From positions 1-57,880 of IMG/VR virus record IMGVR_UViG_3300028043_000002: DNA of 57,880 nucleotides. One strand, written 5' to 3'. The notes beneath the pieces were generated by a model, which searched no databases, had not been told where the DNA came from, and was given only the letters and a program-made list of their open reading frames with translations. The position numbers were made by a program, and so were the translations under genes. The stretch is from a virus. Its lineage: Duplodnaviria; Caudoviricetes. Shown here one piece after another: positions 12,101 through 56,232 of this stretch (the stretch's first letter is position 1; each line of letters starts with the position of its first letter).

Positions 12101-13174
12101 GATATAGGGATTGAGCACCGTTTTAGCGCTTTTTCACACCCAAAAAGGGAAGTTTCGGTTTCTTTGGGGGTTGTTGATAGTGCTGCATACAACGAGCTGC
12201 AGCGAACCCTTATTCTGGGCTCCTCCCTTTCTGCGGTGCCGCTATGGGCCTTTAGTACTCCCCTTACAAGTGGCGCAACTGTGGGGGCCTCTCAAGTTTC
12301 TGTGGCAGACGTGTCAGAGTTCAGTGTTGATGACATTATTTTAATTGTTAGAGACTTGGATATTAACGCCTTTGACAACGCTGTTGTCACATCAATTTCT
12401 GGGACGACAAGTGGTACCTTATTTTTGAATGTCGAGCTAGAAAATGAATACCACGCACCTTCAGTGACAGATTTCATATATGACTCCTTAAGCACTCATG
12501 TGGCCCCCTGTGTTGTGGGTTCTGTAGAATTGGAAGAAGAAGATTTGTACGGCAACGCCTCCCTATTTTTAGTTAAAGCGCGGGTTGATGGCGGGGCGTG
12601 GCGGGGCGCAGTAATTCCAACCTCAATCTCAGACTTTTTGGAAAAACCTGCTGAACCGAAATATGCCAGCCCCAAAATTGAAAGGGACTTATTAGGTGAC
12701 ACTACTGGGGTCTTAGCACTACGTGCTTATGAAAGTTCATCAAGACTAAGTTTTACCCTAGATTGGCACTTTATTGATGATACGTGGAAAACGTTGCGGG
12801 ATGTTTTCTTTTATTCTCGAGGACGTTCAGCCACTTTCCGGATGCCCACTTGGAAATCTGAACTAAGAGTCAGAGCACAATCAGCTCAAGGCTCCTCTAC
12901 AATTACAGTAGACCCAGGCTTCGACAGGATTTGGCAAAGATTCAACACCCTTATGGTTGTACCTCGTTATGGTGATCCATTTATTGTTACCCTTGTTAGC
13001 TATACGGGCAACGAAACTTTTACCTTGAATGCCAGTCTACCAGTAACTATATACCCCGGAGATCAAGTCAGCATATGCCCCACAGTAAGGTTTTCAGAGG
13101 ACAACTTGGAGTTTGCCTTTAAAGGCAAAGATAAATGCACGGTTAGTGCAACCTTTTTAGAGGTGAGAAATTAA
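6119..13174 (+). CDS. Giant tail protein: internal repeated modules plus C-terminal distal-tail (Dit/DUF2460-like) domain
   Basis: 2351 aa; repeated W.D.D[IV]S..[IV]P modules and L.[IV]S.SL..P spacers; C-terminal FF..RGR...F..P.W...VRF..D.L.F. Confidence 0.7.
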   Translation: MGDSLKYWSRGKPLLKPSLNTSGLLYWNRGTPFTVLPMSSGGVEVSLETISASLSAQEPTILAYAGAVVSIDAALQVSCSLESPNVFFGQVFAVEGLTISGTLQAPTVGVFASCLPESLTVNMSLLGAAVQGGATATASGLTISCSLLNPALEYDFMVSMPPGLTISANQPSLNINLDLQFEVWGLNLSASQPAPEIHPGMSITQVGPVTGVFSLPTPSVAGELETIFTTVGVTVSSNMVGNALYRVWEDGTTPQASGWVFQDPRLVDPSRYNNLLDQWANCDLVTDYPPDTTMLLIQVTNTASNKDYTFGLRADACSETRTATVYRNTSEWLLVPVEFYNGTLIFEVYVDHASLSFYVVGRCRYTNWPGPDGSTYSADKSLSTTGSYQPINLSWRNDAQPNYKWLISNPSAKAALLAVNNTGNSSYQYAVRRPDFSYDYYYDIYQNTCQLAVVGLSTNHSFDMKIENANVDCYYIGQGGSDFRILSSGPQLLPATITYSAWVDFDISTYIESGSPPVVGAILQVYNSSGSSVKYNARKNSSTTAITSPIDFYAGCQKFIMVGVDSNKIFEIYQSATGINAYLVGYITAPVFAPGYFLLECTQGVPSPQPVPPGTGWVFPKTPIPNAGLARTQRFCSYTERRDLSGWQDGYNWFEYRPVRAQKVSRNCKSLITKWSGPDEEGTQQAGHRPIDGSDDFVSGGLNCANVQYTPLNADGKCEYSDAETWGPQIHPGHWILCYQQNNDYGLQTYVEKSNTATGWQTKTASEVADGADTAFLMFRNIAPATTWCAYFAEHADCTEYLGPFYGVQSCAWMWVTGINPSKQYDQFVSDLMMDTYLQGYGKGDVHAFAGTATDPRYELAITTVNIDTWKTYSADGIVPDGASGLLLYARYDDDYYGRFRVRIDEEDVSPPKYGCYGGIGHQLAVGLDYNMEFQVFIDSAFYITGEIYVMGYFMGSKRATLWTNPQPLQLGVFPPSPIEVQQSETLSWDGWVFPTNPINITAGLTITNVWATFDLGTNNFVPVNTTAIIFYMDHLTTHEEIRVVRPTGSTYNTLCKTDYVDFFPNLVKLDSNRCFQAYVENLSHQNFYVVAYTNRPVNTVDPWQTEYIAYNPGRVLEVDTSSYTSSSAKFLVLDVMVMTAGTIFGSCLPNEVISWSSAFTNYPGWQGTFGGVTGQSYHANVFAPSEGGKFEAYIGLGAGTTFNVLYWLDNEKFYAFRTPPAITAPKFNGWQDVDVSQWLPGDATGVLLESSYFGPNAEFRKNGATASYFDYNSSPQVVVGVDRYGIFEYNNKNSANVPHFYLLGYFRGYTAGGVDAFADYLTLQASLPALTINTVTKVYAEWPGVQISIPSASVRYGVSHDPNIVTAHLQNLEPDIILETLLEPAAFTLNISLYDPLIFEGMVTQDLALAVLDPLVEEGVGVDVAALTLNLSMLDATIFQAIPVDLQLATLLIQEPLIVIPKLYEIPDALQVTSSLETPNVYGKAVETPSVLDFTLTLPQPYLPDQIIGLSCFENSLNLQAPDIMADAIFEVVGLTVNSTLYTPNVAIIFPMSSALTVSSSLQSPTTYTEASSWVFPTTWTPLIGSWSWTEWNDVQLGSSFENVKGVILHARNSSSLEHTLTFRRTFSSAARQATSQIQPGTHLWYFVPVDSNRKFDMYCSSQDIGPNEDIDIRIVGYCFSNIFLADDIDKSVSTAGTYQTVTFDDSGILADATGVFLELHNSGTSGVNQWAIRKFGTTYDSYYRGQGHNAQMIVAPVDSQRRSEMKVSSTDIDIWAWGSLATDCSFFSSPIALNLSNTSTWTDVDVSSYVPSDTIAVLLELINSSTDSVTMHVRKKGSADFSSDTSALQIPPSNHIHAFVGLNSSKVFQIIRPSTAYTIYLLGYVLGGSRQYLPMPLELGFSQPVLSFVGPPSLTVMVDTNYVSFYGAGVTSGISRTLDAAYPPVDPTIYVEYIGADTAVLHSFGAGSDFSEGGDTFACEITYSFSSDVAVTDIGIEHRFSAFSHPKREVSVSLGVVDSAAYNELQRTLILGSSLSAVPLWAFSTPLTSGATVGASQVSVADVSEFSVDDIILIVRDLDINAFDNAVVTSISGTTSGTLFLNVELENEYHAPSVTDFIYDSLSTHVAPCVVGSVELEEEDLYGNASLFLVKARVDGGAWRGAVIPTSISDFLEKPAEPKYASPKIERDLLGDTTGVLALRAYESSSRLSFTLDWHFIDDTWKTLRDVFFYSRGRSATFRMPTWKSELRVRAQSAQGSSTITVDPGFDRIWQRFNTLMVVPRYGDPFIVTLVSYTGNETFTLNASLPVTIYPGDQVSICPTVRFSEDNLEFAFKGKDKCTVSATFLEVRN

Positions 13175-15120: not shown

Positions 15121-15482
15121 CTAAACTGCAAAGGCGTGCGTTTCGGGGTCTTTCGGGGCTCCTTTTTCTCTCTGTTGTCCAACTAGTTTTGAACCTAGTG
15201 GTTTGGGCAGCAGAAGTGAAGCCCGTGATCTCTCCCTCCCCCACTGAAACTTTCAGTGTTCTTAACATCGTCCCTCTCGCAAACATGGGAATCGGCGCAA
15301 TTATTGCGATTTTATTGATCTGGTCTATTTATCCAGTTATCACCCGTAACACAGAAACTCTGCGTGAGATTGCAACGACTTTAAATGTGATGTCTAGCAA
15401 CAATTTATTGCTCGCCCAAAAGTTGTTAGACGTCATTGAAAGGCAATCATTTCTCATCCGGGGACAAGGAGGTGACCGATGA
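15117..15482 (+). CDS. Membrane protein (holin/antiholin-like)
   Basis: Two TM helices followed by a coiled-coil-like C-terminus. Confidence 0.55.
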   Translation: MTKLQRRAFRGLSGLLFLSVVQLVLNLVVWAAEVKPVISPSPTETFSVLNIVPLANMGIGAIIAILLIWSIYPVITRNTETLREIATTLNVMSSNNLLLAQKLLDVIERQSFLIRGQGGDR

Positions 15483-15889
15483 AAGTCGTTAACCTACACT
15501 ACCCACATAAGGACCTTGTACCGTCAATAGTACGCCAACGATGTATTGTGGAAGCTGCTGGCTGCAAACAGGACATTGATGACATGAATTCTATCCATCA
15601 CTTTTTGGAGCACTTGTGCTTAGTTTTGAATATGGTCCCCATGTCAGCGCCCATGGTCCTGAGAGTGCCTATCTTACGGCAGCATGGTAATAATCCTGAT
15701 GACTACGGAGTTTCTGCTGTCCAGATTTGGATGGAAAGCGGTGTTACTATGCACACATGGCCCGAGCTCGGCTTCATCGATATTAATGTTGAAACTTGCA
15801 AACCTTTCAATCCTGCAAAAATTGGTGAATTGGTTAACGCTTTTTTTGATGCTACTGACGTACAAATTACTAACATCCAAACGTCTTAG
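15479..15889 (+). CDS. speD: S-adenosylmethionine decarboxylase proenzyme family protein
   Basis: GVSAVQIWMESGVTMHTWPELGFIDINVETCK matches the class I AdoMetDC G.S.....ES...HTWPE....D..TC signature with the E/S self-cleavage site. Confidence 0.85.
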   Translation: MKVVNLHYPHKDLVPSIVRQRCIVEAAGCKQDIDDMNSIHHFLEHLCLVLNMVPMSAPMVLRVPILRQHGNNPDDYGVSAVQIWMESGVTMHTWPELGFIDINVETCKPFNPAKIGELVNAFFDATDVQITNIQTS

Positions 15890-20941: not shown

Positions 20942-23089
20942 CTATGAACACCGTGAAAACCCACAATCGAGGCATTCTGCACACCCTTCTTTGTGAATTA
21001 GGCGGCCATGTTTGCAGTGTGGACAATCATCATAAACGGCCTCTAGGGTATCCCTTTCCGGATTCAAGTACTGCTCCCAGAGAACTTTTGCTAGGGCATC
21101 ATAGATAGAGAACACCTGCTTACCTTCTGACCAGACAATATCCCGTCCAGCGATGCCAATCAGCTGCTCATAAACATGCTGCGAAGTACCCCCAAATTGC
21201 CAAATGCTACTCACCATGCGTCCCAAAGCTTCCGCATCAGCCTTTTTGTTACCCCCGCTTTTGCCAATCTCTACGAAGCACTCCATGGGTATATTGTTGT
21301 CTTCGTTGATCGTCACATACATGTTGCCCTGCCCCGTCTTCACTCTTTCAGTGAAGCCAGTTAAACGCTTGGGCCGCAACCAACGTCGTGCTTCAGCAGT
21401 TACCCCCCCAAACTTGATAGGTTGGTTAGTTTTGCTGCCGTCGCGGTAAACAGTGACTCCCTTCAATCCTTGTTCGTATGCAGTTTTGTAAATCTCCAAA
21501 ATAGTTTCAACTGTAGTGGTGTGGGGCAAATTGACCGTCGAACTAATCGAATTGGTAACCTGCTTTTGCAGCTCGGCTTGCATCATTATACGATCTAGCC
21601 AATGGATATCATGAGCAGTCTTCCATAAACGTTTCACGGGCTCCGGTACCCCATTAACTTTTTGTAGCGAACCACCTTGGCGTTTGATCTCGTTGATGAT
21701 GTCGGGCGTGAACCACTTTTCGTTGCGATATCTACGCTCAAACTCTGGATGAATGAAGGTCATAATATCGCCAGTATCCGAAATCTGCTTTTCATAGATG
21801 ATGGCGTATAAGGGTTCCATACCGCTGCTGCAGTCAGCCGATATGGACGTCGTACCCGTGGGCGCGATGGTTGTGGTTTGGGAGTTCCTAGTAGCACCTT
21901 CTACACCCCACAACTCCGTCAACTTCTCTGCACACTTACCATAGAGCGGGAATGGCCCAACTTCGGTGGCTATTAGTTGAGACTCGCGCCACGCTACTGT
22001 AGTAATCTTTTCCATGACACGACCACTAAGTTCTCGAGCTTCCGCCGAGTCATAAGGCAGATTTAACACCAACAAAGCATCTGCAAGGCCCATCAAGCCA
22101 ATACCGATGTTGCGAGTTTGTTGCGACACCTTAGCGAAATCGGCGGTAGGAAATGCTGAGGCGTCCAACATACCATCCAACATGCGCGTAGCAACCTTTA
22201 CCGTTTTTTCTAGCTCTAGCCAATCAATGGTATTCCCCTCAACGTGTGCACCAATGTTGATGCTGCCCAAATTGCAACTCCCATGTCCATGAAGGCCTTG
22301 TTCCCCGCATGGATTGCTAGCACGTATTGGCCCTAGTGAGGGAGAGGTATCAAACTTATTAAACCGATCTAGAAAAATTACCCCGGGATCGCCACAGGCA
22401 TGACTACATTCGGCAATCTGCTGTAGAATTTGCCTAGCTTTAACCTTGGTTTTCACCTTACCATCACAAACACCCTTCAATTCCCACATCTCATCATCCT
22501 GCACCGTTTGCATAAAAGCATCAGTAAGGTTAATCGAGATGTTGACGTTACTTAAATCCTCCCTAGTCTTTAAGCTAATAACCTCCAAGACATCAGGATG
22601 TCCTACATCAAAAACAATCATACAAGCTGCCCTTCTAGTCCTACCTCCCGACTTAATGGTGCCCCCCAAACTATTCAAGTGCCGAATAAAAGCGATAGGC
22701 CCCGAAGAAGTGCCACCACTCGAAAGGGCAGCGTCCTTCTCCCGCAACTCCGAAAAATTACCACCGATACCCGCACCTGCCAAGAAGATTTCGGTAGCTT
22801 CATCATAAAACTTTTTAATGGCGTTCATACTATCAGCAATAGGCGACACATAACACGCCGATGAAATTGGCCGCCTACGAGTACCCAAATTCATATAAGC
22901 CGGGGTGTTCACCCTAACTTTACGCTCGTGCTGCACCCGCACCATTTCTTCTTGCCAAGACTCTAAGTCAGGCCTCGCTTGCACGATAGCTTGTGCCACC
23001 CGCCGAAACACTTGGATGGGTTTGGTTTCGCCATCGTCGTAGTACAGTTTAGTGAAGACATAGTGAGCATTAGCACTTAACTTGGACAT
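20942..23089 (-). CDS. nrdJ: Adenosylcobalamin-dependent (class II) ribonucleotide reductase with C-terminal TSCPD/Zn-ribbon domain
   Basis: SACYV, GGRTRRAACM, NPCGEQ, CNLGSIN, TIAPTGTTS, ISSTVN and KGVTVYRDGS motifs; C-terminal EGC..C..CGFSRC. Confidence 0.95.
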   Translation of the reverse strand: MSKLSANAHYVFTKLYYDDGETKPIQVFRRVAQAIVQARPDLESWQEEMVRVQHERKVRVNTPAYMNLGTRRRPISSACYVSPIADSMNAIKKFYDEATEIFLAGAGIGGNFSELREKDAALSSGGTSSGPIAFIRHLNSLGGTIKSGGRTRRAACMIVFDVGHPDVLEVISLKTREDLSNVNISINLTDAFMQTVQDDEMWELKGVCDGKVKTKVKARQILQQIAECSHACGDPGVIFLDRFNKFDTSPSLGPIRASNPCGEQGLHGHGSCNLGSINIGAHVEGNTIDWLELEKTVKVATRMLDGMLDASAFPTADFAKVSQQTRNIGIGLMGLADALLVLNLPYDSAEARELSGRVMEKITTVAWRESQLIATEVGPFPLYGKCAEKLTELWGVEGATRNSQTTTIAPTGTTSISADCSSGMEPLYAIIYEKQISDTGDIMTFIHPEFERRYRNEKWFTPDIINEIKRQGGSLQKVNGVPEPVKRLWKTAHDIHWLDRIMMQAELQKQVTNSISSTVNLPHTTTVETILEIYKTAYEQGLKGVTVYRDGSKTNQPIKFGGVTAEARRWLRPKRLTGFTERVKTGQGNMYVTINEDNNIPMECFVEIGKSGGNKKADAEALGRMVSSIWQFGGTSQHVYEQLIGIAGRDIVWSEGKQVFSIYDALAKVLWEQYLNPERDTLEAVYDDCPHCKHGRLIHKEGCAECLDCGFSRCS

Positions 23090-24384: not shown

Positions 24385-24625
24385 CTAAGCGGCGATTAAC
24401 GTCTTTAGCGAGTCTAGCAGCTTCTTCTACCAAAGCCGCCAACTTTTGATGCTTATGGTGGGCGTCCTTATTCATTCTCCGCATTTTAAAATACAACCAA
24501 GTCACCAACCCTAAAGTCACCAACCCTAAAATAGCATCTACACCTACCCACATCAACCGCAAATCTCTAAAATGATCTAACCAATAGAGAAGGGGGTGCT
24601 TAGTGGGATATAGAGGCTCCATCAA
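24365..24625 (-). CDS. Small membrane protein
   Basis: One TM segment with a basic tail; coupled to neighbours. Confidence 0.6.
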   Translation of the reverse strand: MMEPLYPTKHPLLYWLDHFRDLRLMWVGVDAILGLVTLGLVTWLYFKMRRMNKDAHHKHQKLAALVEEAARLAKDVNRRLDDKLLV

Positions 24626-24888
24626 TCATCCTCAGTAGTCATCTCACCGATTTCCAACAAAGGTTGGGATTGCACGATATGAGCTTGAGCTAAAGAAAGC
24701 ATTTGGTAGATTTTAGCGGGATGGCCCCAGAAGAAATATTCTTCTTCCTCTTCCCCCCGATGCACCACCAAACACACATGTTTAACGTCAGGAGCCTTTA
24801 TGGCATTCACGGTTTCCAGGAAAGCCCGCCGTGAACTATCTAACATAATAACTTTAGCTTTAGTCATACTCTTAATTTGTCTCTTCAT
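24622..24888 (-). CDS. Hypothetical protein
   Basis: First gene of the leftward operon; AAGGA RBS. Confidence 0.6.
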   Translation of the reverse strand: MKRQIKSMTKAKVIMLDSSRRAFLETVNAIKAPDVKHVCLVVHRGEEEEEYFFWGHPAKIYQMLSLAQAHIVQSQPLLEIGEMTTEDD

Positions 24889-25081
24889 TCACCAAATCCT
24901 TCAGTAAATCCTTCGCCTAAAAGTCTTCGATGAGTGGGCTAGTGTTTTCTTAAAAAGGTCTTTGGGACCGTTTAAAATGATTTACGGAGGGTCCAGAACA
25001 GTAAGGTCCTATTATCTATTTATTTGTGTAGTAATTTAATATATCTGTGATTTAAGTAACCATTATAAGGGGGTAATAACC

Positions 25082-25858
25082 ATGAAAAACGCGTATTTTG
25101 ACTATCTTAATATCCCGGTTATTTCCCTTGAAAACCTTGATGTTTCCTGGGTTGATACCCTTAGAAACCATGGTATTACCCCCCATAAAGAGGCCCGTAT
25201 TTGGTTGAATTCCATTGGTATGACCCCCAACGATAATCTCGAACTGTTCATAGAAAGGACTATTATAGGGTGTGCCCAACAGTTTAACTTCTGGCAGGAT
25301 AATCCTGGTATGAGGTCTGAAACTGTATGGGAATGGCTCCGTAGTGATTATAGATATATACCTGATAATTGGAATCTTTATAGTATTAGAACTATTATAC
25401 ATAACGAAGTTGGAAAGTTCATCCATGAGAATAGGCCCCTGTATAAGGCTATTAATAGGGCCGAATTCTGGCATGATATGAATAAAGTGTTTAATCCTAT
25501 ACCGGGTTTCTGGGATCCGGTATATAAGAAGGTCTTCTTGGTTCAATACATTCTTACCGACCTCGGTATATGTTTCCGGGGTTGGAAGAACACCGGTTAT
25601 GGTTGTATAGATTATAACCTCCTGATAGTGTTTAAGTATTTTGGCATCCTTGATTTCCCCGATCTTGAGTGGCATAACAAGATCGACCTGGATGCCTATA
25701 GACTGAAAGCTTATTCTATTTGTTATCATACTTGTAAGGTCCTTAATATGACCCCTTCGGAATTGGATGGTTATGCCTTCCTGGGTGGTAGGTACCTTAG
25801 GAAGAAGACCGAGTACCAGGTTAACATTCCTAAGGTTTATAATGAAACCAACTATTAA
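25082..25858 (+). CDS. Queuosine-salvage (QNG1/DUF2419)-like glycosylase-fold protein
   Basis: Ordered motifs QFNFW, DPVYKKVFL, CIDYNL..V.KYFGILDF, ELDGYAFLGGR and terminal ETNY parallel the family motifs NFCFW, DP..KRAQ, ADY.LP..L...G.L.Y, ID..LW..G and T..Y. Confidence 0.65.
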   Translation: MKNAYFDYLNIPVISLENLDVSWVDTLRNHGITPHKEARIWLNSIGMTPNDNLELFIERTIIGCAQQFNFWQDNPGMRSETVWEWLRSDYRYIPDNWNLYSIRTIIHNEVGKFIHENRPLYKAINRAEFWHDMNKVFNPIPGFWDPVYKKVFLVQYILTDLGICFRGWKNTGYGCIDYNLLIVFKYFGILDFPDLEWHNKIDLDAYRLKAYSICYHTCKVLNMTPSELDGYAFLGGRYLRKKTEYQVNIPKVYNETNY

Positions 25859-25872
25859 CAAGGAGGTGTGTT

Positions 25873-26175
25873 ATGGAAGCTTTCATGGAACTGGTGCGGT
25901 TCTTGGCTAAGGCTAAGCCGTGGGATCCGTTCGTTCCCGGCTATGTTCCGTCCATGGACAAGGAGAGGATTGCTGTCTTGGATCTTCTCTTAAATCAGAT
26001 CCATGAGTGGAATTGGGACGGCAGGATCAGCGGCATGGTGGCCGGAAAAGCCGCCATTGGTTTATTGCGTCTGTTCGAAGCAGACTTTCTGACCCCGCTT
26101 CAGAAGCGGGAGTTGGTGGAGTGGTTTGATGGAATTAAGTTGGGCGAAGCCTACCTGAAAAGGTTGGTTGAATAA
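25873..26175 (+). CDS. Hypothetical protein
   Basis: AAGGAGGTG RBS; 100 aa. Confidence 0.75.
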   Translation: MEAFMELVRFLAKAKPWDPFVPGYVPSMDKERIAVLDLLLNQIHEWNWDGRISGMVAGKAAIGLLRLFEADFLTPLQKRELVEWFDGIKLGEAYLKRLVE

Positions 26176-26186
26176 GGAGGTGTTTT

Positions 26187-26441
26187 ATGAAAGGAAAGGT
26201 TTGTGGCCTTTGGTGTGGTGGGGAATTAGTTGTGGAGTTGAATTATGGTTTGGGGGTAGTGTTGTTTGTAAGCGGGGGGTTTGTGGAGAAGTATTATGAG
26301 GAGCTAATAGATATGATGTTTAGTGATGTAGAGTTTGAAGTATTGAAAAAGGGGGAGAGTTTGTGGGTAGTGGAGTTATTTGGTATTAAGTTGATTGGCA
26401 GGGTTTATTTTGAAAGTTTGTTTGGAGGCTTGATTGAGTAA
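26187..26441 (+). CDS. Hypothetical protein encoded by a cytosine-depleted gene
   Basis: AAGGAGGTG RBS; 6 C in 255 nt; no A, P, H, Q or T residues. Confidence 0.75.
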   Translation: MKGKVCGLWCGGELVVELNYGLGVVLFVSGGFVEKYYEELIDMMFSDVEFEVLKKGESLWVVELFGIKLIGRVYFESLFGGLIE

Positions 26442-26458
26442 TTAAAAAAACTAAGGAG

Positions 26459-27808
26459 GTGATGGCCATGAACAGGAAAGCCCTTCGGCGGCAAGTCCTG
26501 GACTCCCTCCTCTTACCTCAGGAGTTCGGATTTCCTGGGCTGCGCTTTCCAGTTTTAGGTGGGCATCCCAACTCCTGGGAGGTGTTAACTCCGAAGCGTA
26601 GCTTCGATGGGAGGGAGGGCTCTTACCGAGCGTGGCATGGCCATGCGAGCCTCGAACTCCTCCCTGGCTACGATTCTTGTGACGAAGAAGACGAGGACTT
26701 TGACGTACCATTTGAAAATCGGGCGATGGCAGCTATGGCGTTGCTTCTTAGAGTAGAATACAGCGACGTCCTGCAATTCGTTAATGAAGCCATCGCCATA
26801 TTCCTAAAGAGGCTCGACCCGGAGGCTTTGCGGGTTGCTCGGTTGTTCAGTATTAGACGCCGCCTATTTGTCCTTCAGACGATTTATGAGAAGGGTAAAA
26901 GGTGTGCACAACTGTTTGAGTCCTTCCCAGTACTAGCCGCAACCATTTACAACGCGTCTGGTGACACGGGGTATCAAGAACTACATACCTTCGTGGAAGA
27001 GGGTTTGAAGGCTTCGGATATTGCCCATGTAATTGATTTACCGAAGTCTTATAAGAAGGTCCCTCACTCAGTAGCTTTCGTGGTAGGAAGACATTTCAAC
27101 ATTTTTAAAGACGTGGTTGAGTTCATGCCCACTCATCCACATGAAGCGGTTTTCTTTGTTAGGGGAGTTACCCACTTCCTTGGAGGGTTTAGTCGCTCCC
27201 CGGCTAAAAGGTGGCTTGCCCAGAACTGGACTAGAATCAGGGATGAAAGGTTTCTCTTTCAATTAGAATTAGAACACCCTCGGAGGATTAACATAGACAT
27301 GTGGGTAGAGGAGTTTTTTGACTTTGTACGTGCAGAAGAATTATACGGGGTTAGGCCATTCAACCCTGACATGTCGGTTACCACAGTGATGCGCCTAGTG
27401 GCAGAGTGGCATGATAGGGTAGCACATGCACGAAGGCTTGAGGAAGAGGAAAACTTTGACAAGGTACTTCGGTTGCCAAGGATGCCCACCTCCACTATGG
27501 AGGGGTTCACCTTTAAGCCTCTTACTACGAGGCGCGAGCTGGACGCAGAGGGTCGTGCCATGCACAATTGCGTCTATTCGTATGCCGAGAGAGTACGGGA
27601 TGGTGACTGTGACATCGTGTCCGTACGTAAGGGTGCTGACCACGTGGCTACTATGGAAGTAGTCCTTGGTGAAGGAGAGCTGCTCGAGGTTGCTCAATTA
27701 CGTGGTAAGCGCAACACAGAGGTGCCTGGCGATGTTCGGCGTGCGTGTAAATCCTGGCTCGACCTTTTAAATCTTAATAGGGAAGGAAAGGAGGATGGTG
27801 ATGGCTAG
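26459..27808 (+). CDS. PcfJ-domain protein
   Basis: C-terminal EWH...PLTT..EL.AEG..MHNCV.SY......AT.E......QL.G..N signature. Confidence 0.85.
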   Translation: MMAMNRKALRRQVLDSLLLPQEFGFPGLRFPVLGGHPNSWEVLTPKRSFDGREGSYRAWHGHASLELLPGYDSCDEEDEDFDVPFENRAMAAMALLLRVEYSDVLQFVNEAIAIFLKRLDPEALRVARLFSIRRRLFVLQTIYEKGKRCAQLFESFPVLAATIYNASGDTGYQELHTFVEEGLKASDIAHVIDLPKSYKKVPHSVAFVVGRHFNIFKDVVEFMPTHPHEAVFFVRGVTHFLGGFSRSPAKRWLAQNWTRIRDERFLFQLELEHPRRINIDMWVEEFFDFVRAEELYGVRPFNPDMSVTTVMRLVAEWHDRVAHARRLEEEENFDKVLRLPRMPTSTMEGFTFKPLTTRRELDAEGRAMHNCVYSYAERVRDGDCDIVSVRKGADHVATMEVVLGEGELLEVAQLRGKRNTEVPGDVRRACKSWLDLLNLNREGKEDGDG

Positions 27809-27992
27809 GAAGATTATCGCCCACAAGGTTTCCTCCCGCTTAGATCGAAAGATCAAAGCTCAAGGGTTTTGGTGGGGTTATGTTTTACTCCGACACCTGG
27901 GGAGGTCATGTAACAACTGCGTTGATATGAAAAGAAGAAGTTTTGGTGACCCTTGGAAGCGGTGCGATGATCATGATGGTGGAAACGTTTAA
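27795..27992 (+). CDS. Small hypothetical protein
   Basis: AGGAGG RBS; 65 aa. Confidence 0.55.
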   Translation: MVMARKIIAHKVSSRLDRKIKAQGFWWGYVLLRHLGRSCNNCVDMKRRSFGDPWKRCDDHDGGNV

Positions 27993-28011
27993 GTAGAAAG
28001 GAGGTGATGAA

Positions 28012-28329
28012 ATGAACCCCCTTCAATCCTTCACCTTAGGGGCTTTGTTCAATGGCAAACTGGAAGTAATAGAAGTTGGGGGCTTACGCTATCTCCGTCT
28101 TGGAAAAGGCATTGACGTGATTGAGGTAGGAGATGTCGATGCTTTGTTAATGAATGGCGTACAAGAGTCTAACCACTTTGGCTTGAAGTTAGACGATGTA
28201 GCTATTTATGACAACGGCCCCGAGATGGAGTTTCTGGGCTTCAATAAGTCTGTTGATGTTTGCTTAGGGGAGCCTCGTGACCTTGATAGCGCCGACCATG
28301 TTATCTATAAGGGAGTAATCCTAAAGTAG
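28012..28329 (+). CDS. Hypothetical protein
   Basis: AAGGAGGTG RBS; 105 aa. Confidence 0.7.
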   Translation: MNPLQSFTLGALFNGKLEVIEVGGLRYLRLGKGIDVIEVGDVDALLMNGVQESNHFGLKLDDVAIYDNGPEMEFLGFNKSVDVCLGEPRDLDSADHVIYKGVILK

Positions 28330-28341
28330 GGAGGGAAGGAT

Positions 28342-28503
28342 ATGACTAGGCTAAGAAAGATTTACGTGGATGGGGTAAAGGGGCACGAAGAGGTTCCTGG
28401 TGAGGTGGAGGAAAAGTTTGTAAAAGACTATAGCTTCGGGATGCGAGACCTTCGCTACGTCCCGGAAGTCAAACCTGAAGAGGAGGGGAAAGATGGTTTA
28501 TAA
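28342..28503 (+). CDS. Small acidic protein (53 aa, not in the ORF track)
   Basis: MTRLRKIYVDGVKGHEEVPGEVEEKFV...; GGAGGG RBS. Confidence 0.6.
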   Translation: MTRLRKIYVDGVKGHEEVPGEVEEKFVKDYSFGMRDLRYVPEVKPEEEGKDGL

Positions 28504-28552
28504 GATCATCTAGGGCTTGCGTCAACAGCCACAATTAAATTTAAATAACCCC

Positions 28553-28592
28553 GGTGGGAGGCTAATAACCGGAAAGGTGAAATAATACCACC
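28553..28592 (+). promoter_or_regulatory. Leader motif A, copy 1
   Basis: GGTGGGAGGCTAATAACCGGAAAGGT..AATACCACC just upstream of the 28614 RBS; repeated at 29245 and 31376. Confidence 0.7.
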
Positions 28593-28613
28593 AACGGGGA
28601 AAGGTGATCTGTT

Positions 28614-29054
28614 ATGGGGCATCCGAAGCAGGGAGATGTCTACATTGTCAAGCCTGGAGTGACAGTTGTCCTCCTTAGGCAACACATGGTGGACTTCTTC
28701 CTGTGTGCTCGGATCAACCCGTTCTTCGAGGGAATCAAACCCTTCGATCTCCTACTCGAAGGAGATGAGTGGAGCTTTCGGTTCCAGGCTCTGTTAGAGG
28801 CATGGAACGTAGTCTCGATTCATCGAGAGGATCTCGAGGTATCGGGTCTGAGCAAGCGGATCGGCCAGGTTAGCCCACAAGTGGTTATCTGGGGAAACGA
28901 GCTGGAGAGAGCTTCTAGGCTCTTCGACGAAGTCCCAGAGCACTTGAAGGAGCACACCGGTTCTCCTTATGAGAAGGTCGATCCGAGGTTGGACGAGATG
29001 TTCGAATCTGATGCTGTCATATGTCAGGTTCGACGTTTGTTCCACGAGCTCTAG
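28614..29054 (+). CDS. Hypothetical protein, possible PemK/MazF-like fold
   Basis: PKQGDVYIV...VVLL...PFDLLL...SIHREDL...KRIGQVS resembles the MazF pattern. Confidence 0.45.
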   Translation: MGHPKQGDVYIVKPGVTVVLLRQHMVDFFLCARINPFFEGIKPFDLLLEGDEWSFRFQALLEAWNVVSIHREDLEVSGLSKRIGQVSPQVVIWGNELERASRLFDEVPEHLKEHTGSPYEKVDPRLDEMFESDAVICQVRRLFHEL

Positions 29055-29159
29055 ATCCGGGGGCCAAACCTGACATCTTCGGGATGTCCGAGTCTAACCC
29101 AGCTTGGGAACAGAAATGGGTTTTTTGTTTTTAGGAAATCGAAGAGGGGGGGTATTGAT

Positions 29160-29237
29160 ATGTCAAGATGGCTCGCATACTTAGTTGCGGTGAGCCTTGG
29201 ATTGTGGGTTGCGTATTGGGTAGTCAAGGCATTTTAA
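29160..29237 (+). CDS. 25-aa single-TM peptide
   Basis: MSRWLAYLVAVSLGLWVAYWVVKAF; G-rich RBS. Confidence 0.5.
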   Translation: MSRWLAYLVAVSLGLWVAYWVVKAF

Positions 29238-29244
29238 TAACCCA

Positions 29245-29282
29245 GGTGGGAGCCTAATAAGCGGAAAGGTTAAAATACCACC
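29245..29282 (+). promoter_or_regulatory. Leader motif A, copy 2
   Basis: GGTGGGAGCCTAATAAGCGGAAAGGTTAAAATACCACC. Confidence 0.7.
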
Positions 29283-29303
29283 AAGGGGGAAAGAGGTGAG
29301 CTT

Positions 29304-29456
29304 ATGAAGCCCATCTGGCAGGTTTGCCCCAGCTGTCCAAAGTGGATGGCTGATGGGCATCTGTTCCTGATGAACCTTTATTGGTACATAAAGGATCGTC
29401 AGGTTCGCCGCTTCCTCTGGATCTACTTCGGTCGCCGTTTTGGTGGCCGTCCCTAG
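29304..29456 (+). CDS. Small protein (50 aa, CxxC; not in the ORF track)
   Basis: MKPIWQVCPSCPKWMADGHLFLMNLYWY...; GAGGTG RBS after motif A. Confidence 0.6.
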   Translation: MKPIWQVCPSCPKWMADGHLFLMNLYWYIKDRQVRRFLWIYFGRRFGGRP

Positions 29457-29487
29457 TTCAAGGAAGCTCTTGGTGATTAACCCTTAA

Positions 29488-29515
29488 GCCTTGTAGGTGG
29501 GTTGGTTAAACCTTC
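29488..29515 (+). promoter_or_regulatory. Leader motif B, copy 1
   Basis: GCCTTGTAGGTGGGTTGGTTAAACCTTC; five copies, each intergenic and upstream of an RBS. Confidence 0.75.
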
Positions 29516-29544
29516 ATTTGGTCTTTAGAAAGGAGGTGATATTT

Positions 29545-29739
29545 ATGGCGATAGAGGTTCTCGTGTCCCGTGAAGAGCAAGTTCCCGAGGGCTTCTGGTC
29601 TGAGGTGACTGAGGCTGGAATCATGGTCTTGGTCAAGACGTTAGAAGACCTAATGTTCCTCCTCATGCACAACCAGAAGTTGTTAGGGAAGCTGGAAGTG
29701 GTTCACCTAACTTCCACCCTCTTAGCAATCAACACCTAA
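29545..29739 (+). CDS. Small hypothetical protein, paralog of 31963..32160
   Basis: AAGGAGGTG RBS; G..V.V.TLE.L..L and LT..L.A.N shared with the paralog. Confidence 0.7.
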   Translation: MAIEVLVSREEQVPEGFWSEVTEAGIMVLVKTLEDLMFLLMHNQKLLGKLEVVHLTSTLLAINT

Positions 29740-29786
29740 CCTGAACATGAACTAAATAAACGCGGTGATGTCGACACCGTAAGGAG

Positions 29787-30194
29787 GTGATTAAAATGAC
29801 TTGTCGAACCCTTCGCATCCACGTCAACGAAGAGTATGGCTATCGCGATTGGATTATCTTCATGACCGAGAAAGAACTTCTTCACTTGGTCAATAATGGC
29901 GGTACGATTCCTGCCGCTCCAATCGATGGTACAACGCTCTTCTTCCTTAGGGATAACCACTACCTCGATGGTGTCCTTTACACGGAGCTTGGGAATGAAG
30001 ATCACGACAATCTTCTAGTCCTTGGCGACCCCCATAAGGACTCCCGACATAAGGTACGTCGTATCCCTTCACCGCCGTTGGTAGGCATTCATTGCTATCA
30101 ACCCCCTATTAAGGGGCGCAATCTTTGGAATCGCTGCGACGATACCCCCGACCGTTGGCAGTGGCATTGTTGCGACGAATTCCCTTGGGCATAA
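29787..30194 (+). CDS. Hypothetical protein
   Basis: AAGGAGGTG RBS (true start may be ATG 29796). Confidence 0.7.
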   Translation: MIKMTCRTLRIHVNEEYGYRDWIIFMTEKELLHLVNNGGTIPAAPIDGTTLFFLRDNHYLDGVLYTELGNEDHDNLLVLGDPHKDSRHKVRRIPSPPLVGIHCYQPPIKGRNLWNRCDDTPDRWQWHCCDEFPWA

Positions 30195-30400
30195 CCCTCC
30201 TATCTTAAAAGGGGGTGTGAAGTGTTGTGGGAACATTCGCACCAAGTTAGTCCTTTAAGTTTGAAGGGGTGCCCCTGGTTCCTTTCTATTCCCAAACCCC
30301 TATATCAAGATCCAACTACCTTATTAGTATTTCCCTGGCCTCTTTGGCGGCCCTCAATTTTTGCTTAGCCTATTGTTGATCACTATTAGCAGGAGGAGAT

Positions 30401-30565
30401 ATGAACTTCTTGTTAAGCAACATGATTTTGGCAGTTGGGCTTAGCTGGTACTTTAATACCAGCTACCTTCAAGCTTTTACCGTTGCGGTGGTCATTGGTG
30501 GAATCATGGCCACTCTAAACGTTGTCCTGTCTCGTTTTAGCAAGGTGTTCAGATATCCTTGGTAA
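30401..30565 (+). CDS. Small two-TM membrane protein (54 aa, not in the ORF track)
   Basis: MNFLLSNMILAVGLSWYF...AVVIGGIMATLNVVLSRF; AGGAGG RBS. Confidence 0.6.
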   Translation: MNFLLSNMILAVGLSWYFNTSYLQAFTVAVVIGGIMATLNVVLSRFSKVFRYPW

Positions 30566-30578
30566 AGGGGGGTCCACA

Positions 30579-30863
30579 ATGGATTGGATGTTAATGGTTA
30601 TGGATTGGATAATTGAAGAGGGGTTTAATTGGTTTGTGGAGGTGGATAATGTTTGGTTAAGAATTGAAAAGGGGGATGTGAAAAAGGAGGAGGTGGAGTT
30701 GTGGAAGAGGTTTAGGATTACAAGGAATAAATGGAGTGAAAGGTGGGGGAATGAGTTTGAGGATGGGGAGGTGGTATTTGTTGTAAGGAATGGGTTGGGG
30801 AGAATGAAGTATGTGAAAATGGAAAAGAAGGAGTTAATGAAGGTTTTGAAGTATGGAGTTTAG
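30579..30863 (+). CDS. Hypothetical protein encoded by an essentially cytosine-free gene
   Basis: ATG 30579 after AAAGGGGGG; 94 aa; a single C (30721) in the CDS. Confidence 0.75.
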   Translation: MDWMLMVMDWIIEEGFNWFVEVDNVWLRIEKGDVKKEEVELWKRFRITRNKWSERWGNEFEDGEVVFVVRNGLGRMKYVKMEKKELMKVLKYGV

Positions 30864-30888
30864 TTGGTTTAAATAAAGGAGGGAGGTC

Positions 30889-31113
30889 GTGATGGTAGCA
30901 TTAGTTCGAATGTACAAAGGTCAAATCCGGATTTCTTACATTAGGGAACCCAAGCTCCAAACCTCCCAAGAAGAAATTGATCTGAGGGATCGGGCGCGTA
31001 GGAAGAGGTTACTGAAAATTGAGTTCAACAACTTCAAGGCCACTCGTAGCTGGAAGTTTTGGTTTCGGGGCCGCTACCAGTGGCAAAAGAATTTGAGAAA
31101 GGAGGTGATATAG
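30889..31113 (+). CDS. Small basic protein
   Basis: AAGGAGGGAGG RBS. Confidence 0.6.
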   Translation: MMVALVRMYKGQIRISYIREPKLQTSQEEIDLRDRARRKRLLKIEFNNFKATRSWKFWFRGRYQWQKNLRKEVI

Positions 31114-31299
31114 TTGACCAAGGCAGAAGCTTCGAAGGTCTTTGGCTTCAAGAAGGGCAAGCTTTTGGTTGCCCGTGAAGCCGGTAGGGACCACATGAAG
31201 GAAGCGTATGCCCTCCAAAGCATGTTGAAGGAGGAGGGCATCGATTCCAAGCTGGACATGAATGCCAGCCCCTTAGGCCCTACTATTATTTTAGTCTAA
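31114..31299 (+). CDS. Small hypothetical protein
   Basis: TTG start after AAGGAGGTG. Confidence 0.6.
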   Translation: MTKAEASKVFGFKKGKLLVAREAGRDHMKEAYALQSMLKEEGIDSKLDMNASPLGPTIILV

Positions 31300-31351
31300 A
31301 CCTTCTGAGAACGTGCGGCCATAAAGTCCGTACGTTCAATTGAAGGCTTAG
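31296..31351 (+). other. Long imperfect RNA hairpin (RNase III-like processing site or terminator)
   Basis: CTAA.CCTTC...GAACGTGCGG / CCGTACGTTC...GAAGG.TTAG with a G-U pair; intergenic. Confidence 0.55.
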
Positions 31352-31375
31352 TCAAGTGTGAGTTAAATCTAATGG

Positions 31376-31414
31376 GGTGGGAGCCTAATAAGCGGAAAGG
31401 TAAAAAATACCACC
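31376..31414 (+). promoter_or_regulatory. Leader motif A, copy 3
   Basis: GGTGGGAGCCTAATAAGCGGAAAGGTAAAAAATACCACC. Confidence 0.7.
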
Positions 31415-31433
31415 CTGGGTCCCAGGTAGGGTC

Positions 31434-31886
31434 ATGAACAAGCTCTACGTTGTGAAGGCCTATAATGGGGAAACGTACGAGGACTACGACGTACGTCCCA
31501 TTATGGCATTCTCAACCGCGAAAGCTGCTTGGCAACTTAAGCGGGAGATGAATGCTAGGCTTAATAACGCGCGGCGCGTTCGCGATGCTTTCAGGGCTGA
31601 GTTTCGTGAGGTCAAGAAGATGATTGCTTCAGTCATCGGTCCTTGTCCTCGTCCGAATCGAAGCCCTTGGAGAGACGATCCAAGGCGTGAATGGTTGAAT
31701 CGCCTTGAGAGTCTCGCTTGGCGGAAAATGCCAAAAAGCTTCCATGGTCCGTCTTTATGTGGGTACGCCTCGGATGAATTTCCTGAGATTGACTTCTTCC
31801 ACTTCAGTGATGAAGGGGAATTTCAGGGGGGCATTCCCACACCCCGGGCGGTCTTCTTTATCACTACGCTTCCGTTTGGGGGCTAA
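31434..31886 (+). CDS. Hypothetical protein
   Basis: 150 aa; N-terminus LYVV....GE.YEDY....AFST...A is common in phage early proteins. Confidence 0.7.
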   Translation: MNKLYVVKAYNGETYEDYDVRPIMAFSTAKAAWQLKREMNARLNNARRVRDAFRAEFREVKKMIASVIGPCPRPNRSPWRDDPRREWLNRLESLAWRKMPKSFHGPSLCGYASDEFPEIDFFHFSDEGEFQGGIPTPRAVFFITTLPFGG

Positions 31887-31892
31887 TTAAGG

Positions 31893-31920
31893 GCCTTGTG
31901 GGTGGGTTGGTTAAACCCTC
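31893..31920 (+). promoter_or_regulatory. Leader motif B, copy 2
   Basis: GCCTTGTGGGTGGGTTGGTTAAACCCTC. Confidence 0.75.
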
Positions 31921-31962
31921 TCTTAGTCAAATAAAGCCTGTATGGGAAAGGAGGTGATGAAG

Positions 31963-32173: not shown

Positions 32174-32201
32174 GCCTTGTGGGTGGGTTGGTTAAACCCT
32201 C
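32174..32201 (+). promoter_or_regulatory. Leader motif B, copy 3
   Basis: GCCTTGTGGGTGGGTTGGTTAAACCCTC. Confidence 0.75.
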
Positions 32202-32231
32202 ATTTGGTCTTTAGAAAGGAGGTGAAACAGA

Positions 32232-32456
32232 ATGCCTATCACGCGGGAAGAATATGCCGAGATGTACACACCTGGTCATTGGGCCATCAAGGAGGAAGTT
32301 TTGTCGGCCCTTGAAAGCGGGGCCTGGCTTATCGACTACGGAGCCTACGACGAGCTGAACCATCAGTACCGTCTGTGCTTCGTCGACGGCGAATGCCTCG
32401 TCACCGTCCCCAACGAGGAGAAGGACTTCCTAGACTCGTTCTTGCAAAAGGAATAG
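32232..32456 (+). CDS. Small acidic hypothetical protein
   Basis: AAGGAGGTG RBS. Confidence 0.7.
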   Translation: MPITREEYAEMYTPGHWAIKEEVLSALESGAWLIDYGAYDELNHQYRLCFVDGECLVTVPNEEKDFLDSFLQKE

Positions 32457-32564: not shown

Positions 32565-32592
32565 GCCTTGTGGGTGGGTTGGTTAAACCCTC
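32565..32592 (+). promoter_or_regulatory. Leader motif B, copy 4
   Basis: GCCTTGTGGGTGGGTTGGTTAAACCCTC. Confidence 0.75.
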
Positions 32593-32635
32593 TCTTAGTC
32601 AAATAAAGCCGGTATGGGAAAGGAGGTGAAACAGA

Positions 32636-33025: not shown

Positions 33026-33052
33026 GCCTTGTAGGTAGGTGGTTAAACCTTC
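33026..33052 (+). promoter_or_regulatory. Leader motif B, copy 5 (variant)
   Basis: GCCTTGTAGGTAGGTGGTTAAACCTTC. Confidence 0.7.
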
Positions 33053-49827: not shown

Positions 49828-50181
49828 CTTTTTTCCCCAAACTGTTTTAATTTCTCCTCGATGAAGGGGTTTCTCTAGATCGCTTTTGAGCCCCTAGATA
49901 CCAATTCACCGGTAATCTAATTCATCCATCTTCAACTTTCACCACCTTAACCCTTACTCTTTTTACTCTACTCTGCTTACTAGCAGGTCTAAATTTTTCC
50001 TGTACGTCTGCCATCACCCATTCCTCTTAAGTTCGCGCCGGGCGGGGGTGGTACTCGCCAGATATAGTTGGAGCCAAGTCTATAACTTTTACTGAGCATA
50101 AGGTGGTCATTTAAAAGATTTCTACCTAGGCGGTGCAGGTGTGAGCCATACAGGTACCCCCTCAAAATTTATTCTCATAAT

Positions 50182-56230: not shown

Positions 56231-56232
56231 AG

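What the first reader, a model, noticed from the sequence alone, without database searches (positions are those of the whole stretch)
26187..26441. Cytosine-depleted early gene 1 (6 C in 255 nt)
Seen: the only Cs are at 26207, 26208, 26273, 26304, 26399 and 26429, all in codons with C-free synonyms. The 84-aa protein has no Ala, Pro, His, Gln or Thr, the residues that force a C. The flanking genes have normal C content and the gene has a perfect AAGGAGGTG RBS. Inference: nucleotide-level selection against C in the mRNA (or G in the template), matching the second gene at 30579.
Basis: partly seen in the sequence, partly recalled or inferred. Interest (0 to 1): 0.7.

Follow-up and report, generated by a model that had tools for sequence, protein, structure and literature searches.

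The report
Phage genes written without cytosine
Two small genes of an uncultured freshwater-sediment phage are spelled almost entirely without the letter C; selection appears to keep them that way, probably so their messages still work when something in the infected cell attacks or withholds C.

Summary
ORF 26187..26441 (+, 84 aa) has 6 C in 255 nt, at exactly the stated positions. ORF 30579..30863 (+, 94 aa) has 1 C in 285 nt. The window averages 21.9% C, and no other ORF falls below 13.6%.

Both are real coding frames with a start codon and a ribosome-binding site. Shuffles of the same letters keep the frame open in only 43 and 3 of 100,000 tries.

The bias is at the nucleotide level. Given each protein and the phage's own codon usage, 27 and 25 C are expected (0 of 200,000 simulations reach the observed counts). 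The five residues that force a C (A, P, H, Q, T) are missing.

Gene 1 has no homolog anywhere. Gene 2 has two, at 74% and 59% identity, and they also hold 0 A/P/H/Q/T. So for gene 2 the constraint persists through divergence. Their DNA could not be seen.

The mechanism is unresolved. My best guess (0.4) is that each C in the translatable message is a liability, most likely to a C-dependent ribonuclease. Rivals are CTP-free or chain-terminator-proof transcription, a DNA-level ban, Rho blindness and R-loops.

Five literature searches found no description. Earlier unchecked notes of this scan report C-free genes in other phages. The "early" and "anti-defence" labels are untested.

The parts
26156..26450 (+). 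C-depleted tract 1: 6 C in 295 nt, GC skew +0.89. It runs from 17 nt before the ribosome-binding site to 9 nt after the stop codon.
   Evidence: C positions listed; skew.
26173..26181 (+). Shine-Dalgarno sequence AAGGAGGTG of gene 1. It overlaps the TAA stop of the preceding ORF.
   Evidence: Sequence.
26187..26441 (+). Gene 1, 84 aa, an ORFan written in the 15-residue C-free alphabet. 6 C in 255 nt.
   Evidence: The frame stays open in only 43 of 100,000 shuffles. No homolog among 5.8 billion clusters or 1.84 billion representatives.
30564..30572 (+). Purine-rich Shine-Dalgarno-like stretch before gene 2. Three Cs (30574, 30575, 30577) lie between it and the ATG.
   Evidence: Sequence; C positions.
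30578..30887 (+). C-free tract 2: 1 C (30721) in 310 nt, GC skew +0.98. It runs from one base before the ATG of gene 2 to one base before the start of the next ORF (30889).
30579..30863 (+). Gene 2, 94 aa, with 1 C. It has two homologs (74% and 59% identity) with the same restricted alphabet and 44 invariant columns, including six Trp.
   Evidence: The frame stays open in only 3 of 100,000 shuffles.
25873..26175 (+). Upstream neighbour of gene 1, 100 aa, no family. Normal C (19.1%). Abuts gene 1, so co-transcription is likely.
26459..27808 (+). Downstream neighbour of gene 1, PcfJ-like, 449 aa. Normal C (22.0%).
   Evidence: Pfam PF14284, E 8e-17; composition.

Best explanation
Both ORFs are genuine, fast-evolving accessory phage genes. 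Selection keeps their sense strand free of cytosine, even at the price of giving up five amino acids.

The most likely reason (inferred, not shown) is that every C in the translatable message is a liability. Some activity in the infected cell acts on C in single-stranded RNA. The best candidate is an endoribonuclease (a host abortive-infection or toxin RNase, or the phage's own shut-off RNase) whose short recognition site needs a C.

A stretch with its own ribosome-binding site, start and stop but no C would then survive as an intact, translatable piece while the rest of the operon's RNA is cut. The two proteins would still be made when other messages fail.

Shown: the bias, its significance, its nucleotide-level nature, the coding status, and persistence in the homologs of gene 2.

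Inferred: that the target is the RNA, that the agent is a nuclease, and that the proteins act in takeover or counter-defence.
For: The bias is at the nucleotide level and indifferent to codon position. Third-position Cs, which are silent, are avoided as much as first- and second-position Cs: 4 and 0 third-position Cs remain, and expected total C is 27.1 and 25.3 against 6 and 1 observed (0 of 200,000 simulations).

The tracts match translatable units, not larger regions. Tract 1 covers the ribosome-binding site, the ORF and the stop (26156-26450). Tract 2 covers the ORF and the spacer up to the next start (30578-30887). Neighbours in the same gene string have 18-22% C.

A few Cs are tolerated (6 and 1). 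That fits a graded per-C cost better than an absolute rule.

The constraint persists through 26-41% protein divergence in the gene 2 family: 1 C-forcing residue in 284, against 24.2% expected, P 6e-33.

The frames are real: open in 43 and 3 of 100,000 shuffles, with 7-13 stops in the other sense frames.

The residual Cs of gene 1 all follow G or C: 5 GC, 1 CC, 0 TC, 0 AC. This is a weak hint of context dependence.

Precedents, recalled and not from any call here: ACA-less messages resist MazF, and T4 RegB cuts early messages at GGAG.
Against: No ribonuclease, host or phage, is identified. No RNase family appears among the roughly 90 window ORFs scanned against Pfam, the window is only 37% of the genome, and the host is unknown.

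There are no expression data.

In gene 2, three Cs lie between the ribosome-binding site and the ATG. A cut there would strip the ribosome-binding site.

Gene 2 keeps one ACA and gene 1 keeps two GCT, so the classic MazF (ACA) and MqsR (GCU) specificities are not fully avoided.

Among C-free synonyms, G-ending codons are over-used: 67 observed against 48.7 expected, p 0.0025. So G may itself be favoured, which a plain ban on C does not predict.

The one relative record found (RNR 69% identical, 41 kb) has no such gene.

Sequence alone cannot tell a ban on C in the RNA from a ban on C in the coding DNA strand or on G in the template.
Confidence: 0.4

Rival explanations
1. CTP-independent, chain-terminator-proof transcription. 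A message without C needs no CTP and cannot incorporate a CTP analogue. It would still be completed when CTP is scarce, or when a viperin-type defence supplies ddhCTP (background recalled, not from a call).
For: It explains a cost for every single C regardless of codon position, and the tolerance of a few Cs. Tract 1 starts 31 nt before the ATG, a plausible leader length.
Against: The whole transcript from its start would have to be C-poor. Gene 1 abuts an upstream ORF with 19.1% C. Gene 2 has Cs at -2, -4 and -5 from the ATG, after its ribosome-binding site. No sigma-70-like promoter is predicted just before either tract: 4 promoter-like sites in 24500-31500 against 9.0 expected, none adjacent. 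The phage's promoter type is unknown, so this evidence is weak.
Confidence: 0.15
2. The ban acts on DNA, not RNA. One version: C in the coding strand, exposed as single-stranded DNA during transcription, is attacked by a deaminase or a C-specific single-strand nuclease. The other: G in the template strand is the problem, for example a modified or damaged G that the polymerase cannot read.
For: Sequence cannot separate these from an RNA-level ban. It gives the same per-base, position-independent signature. The G-rich coding strand (37% G) with a G-free template fits a template-side reading. An earlier unchecked note of this scan (e1-3410014) reports a C-free strand spanning genes of both orientations in another phage.
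Against: A purely mutational deamination footprint is excluded. C loss is matched by G gain (+12 points) at least as much as by T gain (+10 and +3 points), and the frames stay intact. No base-modification or deaminase genes appear among the Pfam hits of the window, though only 37% of the genome is held. The co-transcribed neighbours are not protected.
Confidence: 0.12
3. Rho-blind RNA. Rho loads on C-rich, G-poor RNA through YC dinucleotides (recalled). A G-rich message without C cannot recruit Rho, so transcription cannot be terminated within these genes.
For: YC dinucleotides: 1 in tract 1 and 0 in tract 2. G is favoured among the synonyms. GC skew is +0.89 and +0.98.
Against: Rho can load on the normal-C neighbours of the same operon. 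Both genes have strong ribosome-binding sites, and translated RNA is shielded from Rho anyway. Rho evasion does not need zero C.
Confidence: 0.08
4. A strand-asymmetric DNA element, with the G-rich non-template strand promoting a stable R-loop (for example a replication or recombination start) that happens to lie in a gene.
For: Extreme GC skew. Six runs of >=3 G in each gene. G-ending codons preferred.
Against: R-loop zones do not need zero C. No four-tract G3+ quadruplex motif is present. The tracts follow ORF borders. The protein is conserved, with 44 invariant columns. An iteron-like array that looks more like an origin lies elsewhere, at 50181-50700.
Confidence: 0.06
5. Structure-free message. 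Without C no G-C pair can form, so the mRNA stays open for fast translation or escapes sensors and nucleases of double-stranded RNA.
For: These are the least structured 255-nt stretches of 25000-57880: -35.1 and -16.6 kcal/mol, against a mean of -73.5 (sd 12.5) over 218 windows.
Against: The folding energy is just what the composition gives: z -0.79 and -0.83 against shuffles. The choice among C-free synonyms goes toward G, not A, which adds G-U pairing. That is the opposite of what minimising structure predicts.
Confidence: 0.06
6. No function: a local mutational accident, foreign DNA of odd composition, or an assembly artefact.
For: Gene 1 is an ORFan. Both genes are absent from the one relative found.
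Against: The same DNA stands in contigs of three runs. The frames are open far beyond chance. The borders at gene edges are sharp. The gene 2 alphabet holds at 59% identity. Foreign origin would not remove one base only.
Confidence: 0.03

Closest known systems
Motif-free messages that resist sequence-specific mRNA interferases (ACA-less mRNAs versus MazF, GCU-poor mRNAs versus MqsR). Recalled, not from a call.
   Same: A message stays intact and translatable because it lacks what the nuclease needs. Selection acts on nucleotides, including synonymous sites.
   Different: Here the avoided 'motif' is a single base, at the cost of five amino acids. One ACA and two GCT remain. No nuclease is known for this phage or its host.
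T4 RegB and early mRNAs (a phage endoribonuclease cutting GGAG in ribosome-binding sites). Recalled.
   Same: A phage setting in which the lifetime of an early message depends on whether it holds a short nuclease site.
   Different: These genes keep GGAGG ribosome-binding sites. The avoided letter is C. No RegB-like gene was seen in the window.
G-less and C-less cassettes of in-vitro transcription. Recalled.
   Same: A template that can be transcribed with only three NTPs.
   Different: Those are laboratory constructs. Here it is a natural, translated, conserved gene.
Restriction-site avoidance in phage genomes. Recalled.
   Same: A C-free strand cannot hold any palindrome with a G-C pair. Only GGCC and AGCT remain in tract 1 and none in tract 2.
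   Different: Avoidance covers two 0.3-kb genes, not the genome, so cutting elsewhere would still kill the phage.
C and CpG depletion of eukaryotic viruses under APOBEC or ZAP pressure. Recalled.
   Same: Host activities aimed at C shape viral composition.
   Different: That effect is genome-wide, mild and T-enriching. Here it is gene-specific, near total and G-enriching.
GC-skew R-loop zones (ColE1 RNA II, immunoglobulin switch regions, T4 oriF/oriG). Recalled.
   Same: G-rich non-template strand with G clusters.
   Different: Those tolerate C and are not bounded by an ORF.
Earlier notes of this scan on C-free genes in other phages (e1-6080161, e1-5345216, e1-5726458, e1-3410014). Unchecked AI notes.
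   Same: Small phage ORFs of unknown function with almost no C on the coding strand, judged there to be selection-maintained and undescribed.
   Different: Other virus lineages (marine flavobacterial phage, archaeal virus, T4-like cyanophage). There is no sequence relation to this window. Here the tracts follow single ORFs inside an operon and no transcription signals bound them.

Membership tests
Interferase-resistant, motif-free mRNA (MazF/ACA type) | The message lacks the toxin's recognition motif. | tested here: not met
   Tract 1 has 0 ACA, but tract 2 keeps 1 ACA (30720-30722). Tract 1 keeps 2 GCT.
Interferase-resistant, motif-free mRNA (MazF/ACA type) | A cognate endoribonuclease is present in the host or the phage. 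| not testable with these tools
   The host is unknown. No RNase family appears among the Pfam hits of the window ORFs. Only 37% of the genome is held.
GC-skew R-loop-forming zone | Strong G>C skew and G clusters on the non-template strand. | tested here: met
   Skew +0.89 and +0.98. Six runs of >=3 G in each gene.
GC-skew R-loop-forming zone | A persistent RNA-DNA hybrid downstream of a promoter. | not testable with these tools
   No RNA or hybrid data exist. No promoter-like site is adjacent.
G-quadruplex motif | Four G3+ tracts with loops of 1-7 nt. | tested here: not met
   0 hits on either strand of the whole window.
Diversity-generating retroelement variable region | A template repeat and a reverse transcriptase nearby, with adenine-specific variation. 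| tested here: not met
   The missing base is C, not A. There is no second copy of either gene in 24000-57880; the best match is a 25-nt stretch at 72%. No reverse transcriptase appears among the Pfam hits.
Deaminase (C-to-U) mutational footprint | C loss mirrored by T gain, with genes degraded or evolving neutrally. | tested here: not met
   G rises by 12 points in both genes; T rises by 10 and 3 points. The frames are intact. The alphabet is kept in homologs.
Purine loading of coding strands (Szybalski, Forsdyke) | Both pyrimidines are lowered on the sense strand. | tested here: not met
   Purines are 62% and 71% against 51% for the window. But T is raised to 36.5% in gene 1, so only C is removed.
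Any curated protein family (Pfam-A, PHROGs v4) | A significant profile match. | tested here: not met
   0 families for either protein in Pfam and PHROGs. The AF2 models are too poor to search with (pLDDT 47.7 and 45.8).
C-free phage genes as noted earlier in this scan | Near-zero C on the coding strand of small phage ORFs, beyond what the protein requires. | tested here: met
C-free phage genes as noted earlier in this scan | The trait is kept in diverged relatives. | tested here: inconclusive
   Gene 2: met at protein level only, with 0 of 96 and 0 of 94 C-forcing residues; the DNA was not seen. Gene 1: no relatives exist.
C-free phage genes as noted earlier in this scan | The zone is bounded by transcription start and end signals. 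| tested here: inconclusive
   No promoter-like or terminator-like site lies at the borders. The borders follow ORF edges. The promoter type of this phage is unknown.

The most novel reading that the evidence does not exclude
Phages of unrelated lineages keep a few 'three-letter' genes whose messages contain no C and need no CTP. These genes act as an emergency channel of expression. It stays open under a host immunity aimed at cytosine: C-dependent RNases, ddhCTP-type chain terminators, CTP depletion or deaminases. The small ORFan proteins encoded this way would then be the counter-defence factors against that same immunity.
Probability: 0.3. Interest if true: 0.9.

Novelty: categorically new. 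Interest (0 to 1): 0.78.

Why it matters
A protein-coding gene kept free of one of the four bases, at the price of five amino acids, means something in the infected cell discriminates nucleic acids by a single base.

Finding that agent would reveal either a new layer of anti-phage immunity or a new phage trick for privileged expression.

The signature can be computed from sequence alone. It could therefore flag candidate counter-defence genes among the huge mass of phage ORFans, and it gives a clean experiment: wild type against a synonymous recoding.

It also shows that natural, foldable proteins can be built from a 15-residue alphabet.

Tried and rejected
Collection-wide scan. I stopped that step. 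So how common such genes are across phages remains open.

Relatives of gene 1, gene 2 or the neighbours. None was found in viral contigs, metagenome contigs or genome contigs. There was no blastn match in GenBank phages.

Relatives of a virus record. They cannot be drawn by the genome search.

The one relative found, through the RNR. G001, 41,199 bp, was scanned whole. The lowest count is 14 C per 200 nt, and there is no C-free gene.

Other phage DNA. 44 further viral loci (673,379 bases), brought in by the Clp-like ATPase, hold only five marginal windows with 5 of one base in 150 nt. I inspected only the one in L016, which is an AT-rich spacer. The other four lie in loci whose overall C content is low (13-16%). 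Synechococcus phage Syn9, followed as a lead from earlier notes: 127,300 of 177,300 bases were scanned (50001-100000 not fetched) and no window has <=6 C or G per 150 nt.

Expression. No RNA holder is listed. The three holders are DNA contig sets from freshwater sediment. Laying them showed only identical contigs, plus short pieces of a relative that joins the gene 2 start to a different, also C-free, 16-nt leader.

Structure and function of the proteins. The AF2 models have low confidence (pLDDT 47.7 and 45.8), so no fold search was run. The protein atlas gave no usable hits. Gene 1 and gene 2 are unrelated to each other (E 0.16).

Other checks. Rfam and tRNA scans found nothing in the window. 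There is no G-quadruplex motif. No complex prediction was attempted.

Literature. Five full-text searches found no description of C-free phage genes. Only listings and abstracts were seen.

Full report
WHAT THE WINDOW IS. The window is a whole IMG/VR virus record of 57,880 bp, linear, estimated 37% complete. It carries tail genes at 1-20.8 kb. A ribonucleotide reductase and a 5'-3' exonuclease lie on the minus strand at 20.9-24.1 kb. From 25,082 onward there is a long plus-strand string of mostly small ORFs without known families. Identical DNA stands in contigs of three freshwater-sediment metagenome runs. The host is unknown, and no tRNA or Rfam family is present.

THE OBSERVATION. A second ORF, 30579..30863, holds one C (30721), and the tract 30578-30887 is otherwise C-free. 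Sliding 255-nt windows average 55.8 C (sd 10.7), and only these two places have 25 or fewer. No such low exists for A, G or T. Among 104 ORFs of at least 50 codons the median C fraction is 0.211. These two have 0.024 and 0.035, and the next lowest has 0.136. C-free runs of 88 nt occur only here, only on the plus strand, and in none of 100 shuffles. The binomial probability of 6 or fewer C in 255 nt is 8e-20.

ARE THEY GENES? Sequences without C are rich in stop codons. The other two sense frames hold 13 and 7 stops in gene 1, and 10 and 9 in gene 2. Yet the annotated frames are open from ATG to stop, which only 43 and 3 of 100,000 shuffles of the same letters achieve. Both frames have purine-rich ribosome-binding sites. 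Gene 2 has two homologs of the same length (96 and 94 aa; 74% and 59% identity) with 44 invariant columns, among them six tryptophans and the first and last residues. That is the pattern of a protein under purifying selection. I take both as real coding genes. Expression itself is not shown.

NUCLEOTIDE-LEVEL CONSTRAINT. I took each protein as given and drew codons from the usage of 34 reference genes of this phage (11,649 codons). This predicts 27.1 (sd 4.1) and 25.3 (sd 3.9) Cs, against 6 and 1 observed. None of 200,000 simulations came as low. Where both kinds of synonym exist, the genes use 56 C-free to 6 C-containing codons, and 55 to 0. The reference genes use C-containing codons 45.5% of the time. 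The five residues whose codons all contain C (Ala, Pro, His, Gln, Thr) make up 24.2% of the reference proteome but 0 of 84 and 1 of 94 residues here.

IS IT MAINTAINED? Gene 1 is an ORFan. It matches only itself among 5.8 billion clusters and 1.84 billion representatives read exhaustively by HMMER. Its history therefore cannot be read. Gene 2's two homologs contain 0 of 96 and 0 of 94 C-forcing residues. In the 52 variable columns, only 1 of 110 residue states is one, P 2e-12. The one Thr of the window's copy is Val in both relatives. The family has changed up to 41% of its residues without leaving the 15-letter alphabet. That argues for a continuing force rather than a single event. The homologs' DNA lies in short ENA contigs I could not fetch, so their silent sites remain unknown. 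A profile search added no further members.

WHAT THE ANATOMY SAYS ABOUT MECHANISM. (a) The tracts follow translatable units. Tract 1 spans 26156-26450: 17 nt of leader, the ribosome-binding site, the ORF and 9 nt beyond the stop. Tract 2 spans 30578-30887, from one base before the ATG to one base before the next start.

(b) Both genes sit inside gene strings whose other members have normal C, and gene 1 abuts the ORF before it. No promoter-like or terminator-like site bounds either tract.

(c) Silent third-position Cs are avoided as much as others. A model in which only protein recoding by C-to-U editing matters therefore fails.

(d) The lost C is replaced by G (+12 points in both genes) at least as much as by T. 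The frames are intact. A simple deamination footprint therefore fails.

(e) The messages would be the least structured of the region, at -35.1 and -16.6 kcal/mol against a mean of -73.5. But this is exactly what their composition gives (z -0.8). Among C-free synonyms, G-ending codons are preferred: 67 observed against 48.7 expected, p 0.0025. That adds G-U pairing, so low structure looks like a by-product rather than the aim.

(f) There is no four-tract G-quadruplex motif.

(g) The residual Cs of gene 1 all follow G or C: 5 GC, 1 CC, and no TC or AC. With six sites this is only a hint that context matters.

BEST READING AND RIVALS. The features fit best a cost attached to every C of a single-stranded message. 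My preferred form is a C-requiring endoribonuclease. A C-free stretch with its own ribosome-binding site would survive as a translatable fragment while the rest of the operon's RNA is cut. This explains why the tracts match ORFs rather than operons. I give it 0.4.

Against it: no nuclease is known; three Cs lie between the ribosome-binding site and the ATG of gene 2; one ACA and two GCT remain; and G is positively favoured.

The rivals are:
- CTP-free or chain-terminator-proof transcription, 0.15. It is weakened by the C-containing upstream sequence.
- A DNA-level ban, on C in the exposed coding strand or on G in the template, 0.12.
- Rho blindness, 0.08. YC dinucleotides number 1 and 0, but the neighbours offer loading sites.
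- An R-loop or skew element, 0.06.
- A structure-free message, 0.06.
- No function, 0.03.

Sequence alone cannot separate RNA-level from DNA-level bans.

HOW COMMON IS IT? The only relative record I could find (reductase 69% identical; 41,199 bp, 26% complete) has no C-free gene; its lowest count is 14 C per 200 nt. Forty-four other viral loci (673,379 bases) hold only five marginal windows (5 of one base in 150 nt). I inspected one of them, and it is an AT-rich spacer. In Syn9, 127,300 of 177,300 bases hold none. So the trait is rare and looks like an accessory-gene property.

Earlier notes of this scan (unchecked AI notes) report C-free genes in a marine flavobacterial phage, an archaeal virus clade, T4-like cyanophages and a Prevotella sigma-factor family. 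One lineage there is said to use a G-poor version. They share no sequence with this window. I treat them as leads that the phenomenon recurs, not as support.

KNOWN COMPARISONS AND NOVELTY. Neither protein belongs to any Pfam or PHROG family. The structure models are too poor to search with, and the atlas gave nothing. The nearest known ideas come from my own recollection, not from a call. They are:
- motif-free messages resisting MazF or MqsR;
- T4 RegB acting on early messages;
- laboratory G-less cassettes;
- restriction-site avoidance;
- APOBEC- or ZAP-driven C depletion in eukaryotic viruses;
- GC-skew R-loop zones.

Each shares one aspect and fails on others (see the membership rows). 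Five full-text searches found no description of phage genes lacking cytosine (listings and abstracts only). One abstract (PMC6526412, seen in the listing) states that most natural DNA and RNA lack long stretches missing one nucleotide. I therefore rate the phenomenon as lying outside described kinds, while its mechanism remains a hypothesis.

WHAT IS NOT SHOWN. These points remain open: that the genes are early; that they act against defence; that they are transcribed or translated; which strand or molecule is the target; and whether the homologs avoid C at silent sites.

Noticed in passing
window 50181-50700: An array of at least 9 direct copies of a 14-nt unit (GAAACTTCTAAACG) spaced 38-76 nt apart, followed by inverted copies at about 50562-50692. 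It looks like iterons of a replication origin or a binding array for a phage regulator.
   Followed up: no
window 29488-29539, 31893-31957, 32174-32238, 32565-32629, 33026-33047: A repeat of about 52 nt (first 22 nt 82-100% alike in 5 copies), each lying just before a ribosome-binding site and a small ORF. Contigs of relatives in the same samples break or join at 29477-29539. It therefore looks like a regulatory element that also serves as a recombination joint between gene cassettes.
   Followed up: partly
window 28553-28583, 29245-29275, 31376-31406 (hairpin at 31410-31429): A 31-nt repeat in 3 copies (87-100% alike). The last copy is followed by a palindromic GC-rich hairpin. A relative's contig carries the same hairpin after the 29275 copy.
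   Followed up: no
window 25052-25861: The first gene of the plus-strand string (25082..25858, 258 aa, no family, 39.5% GC) is fully overlapped by an open antisense frame of 269 codons. This is probably a chance effect of its AT-rich codons, but I did not check it.
   Followed up: no
window 55392-55482 / 55815-55905 and 55910-55973 / 56172-56235: Two pairs of near-identical direct repeats (91 nt at 93%, 64 nt at 94%), each ending at a start codon. This suggests tandemly duplicated small genes with conserved leaders.
   Followed up: no
L002 6930-7340 (relative record G001): The divergent intergenic region next to the RNR operon of the relative is filled with tandem repeats: a unit of about 30 nt x4 and a unit of about 59 nt x3. 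The window's counterpart (24889-25081) has none.
   Followed up: no
window 6119-13174: A single 2,351-aa ORF in the tail module. Only its last 140 residues match a tail assembly family (phrog_1082).
   Followed up: no
window 15479-15889 and 20942-23089: The phage carries an S-adenosylmethionine decarboxylase (PF02675, E 2e-16). It also carries a ribonucleotide reductase with a C-terminal TSCPD domain. Both are auxiliary metabolic genes.
   Followed up: no
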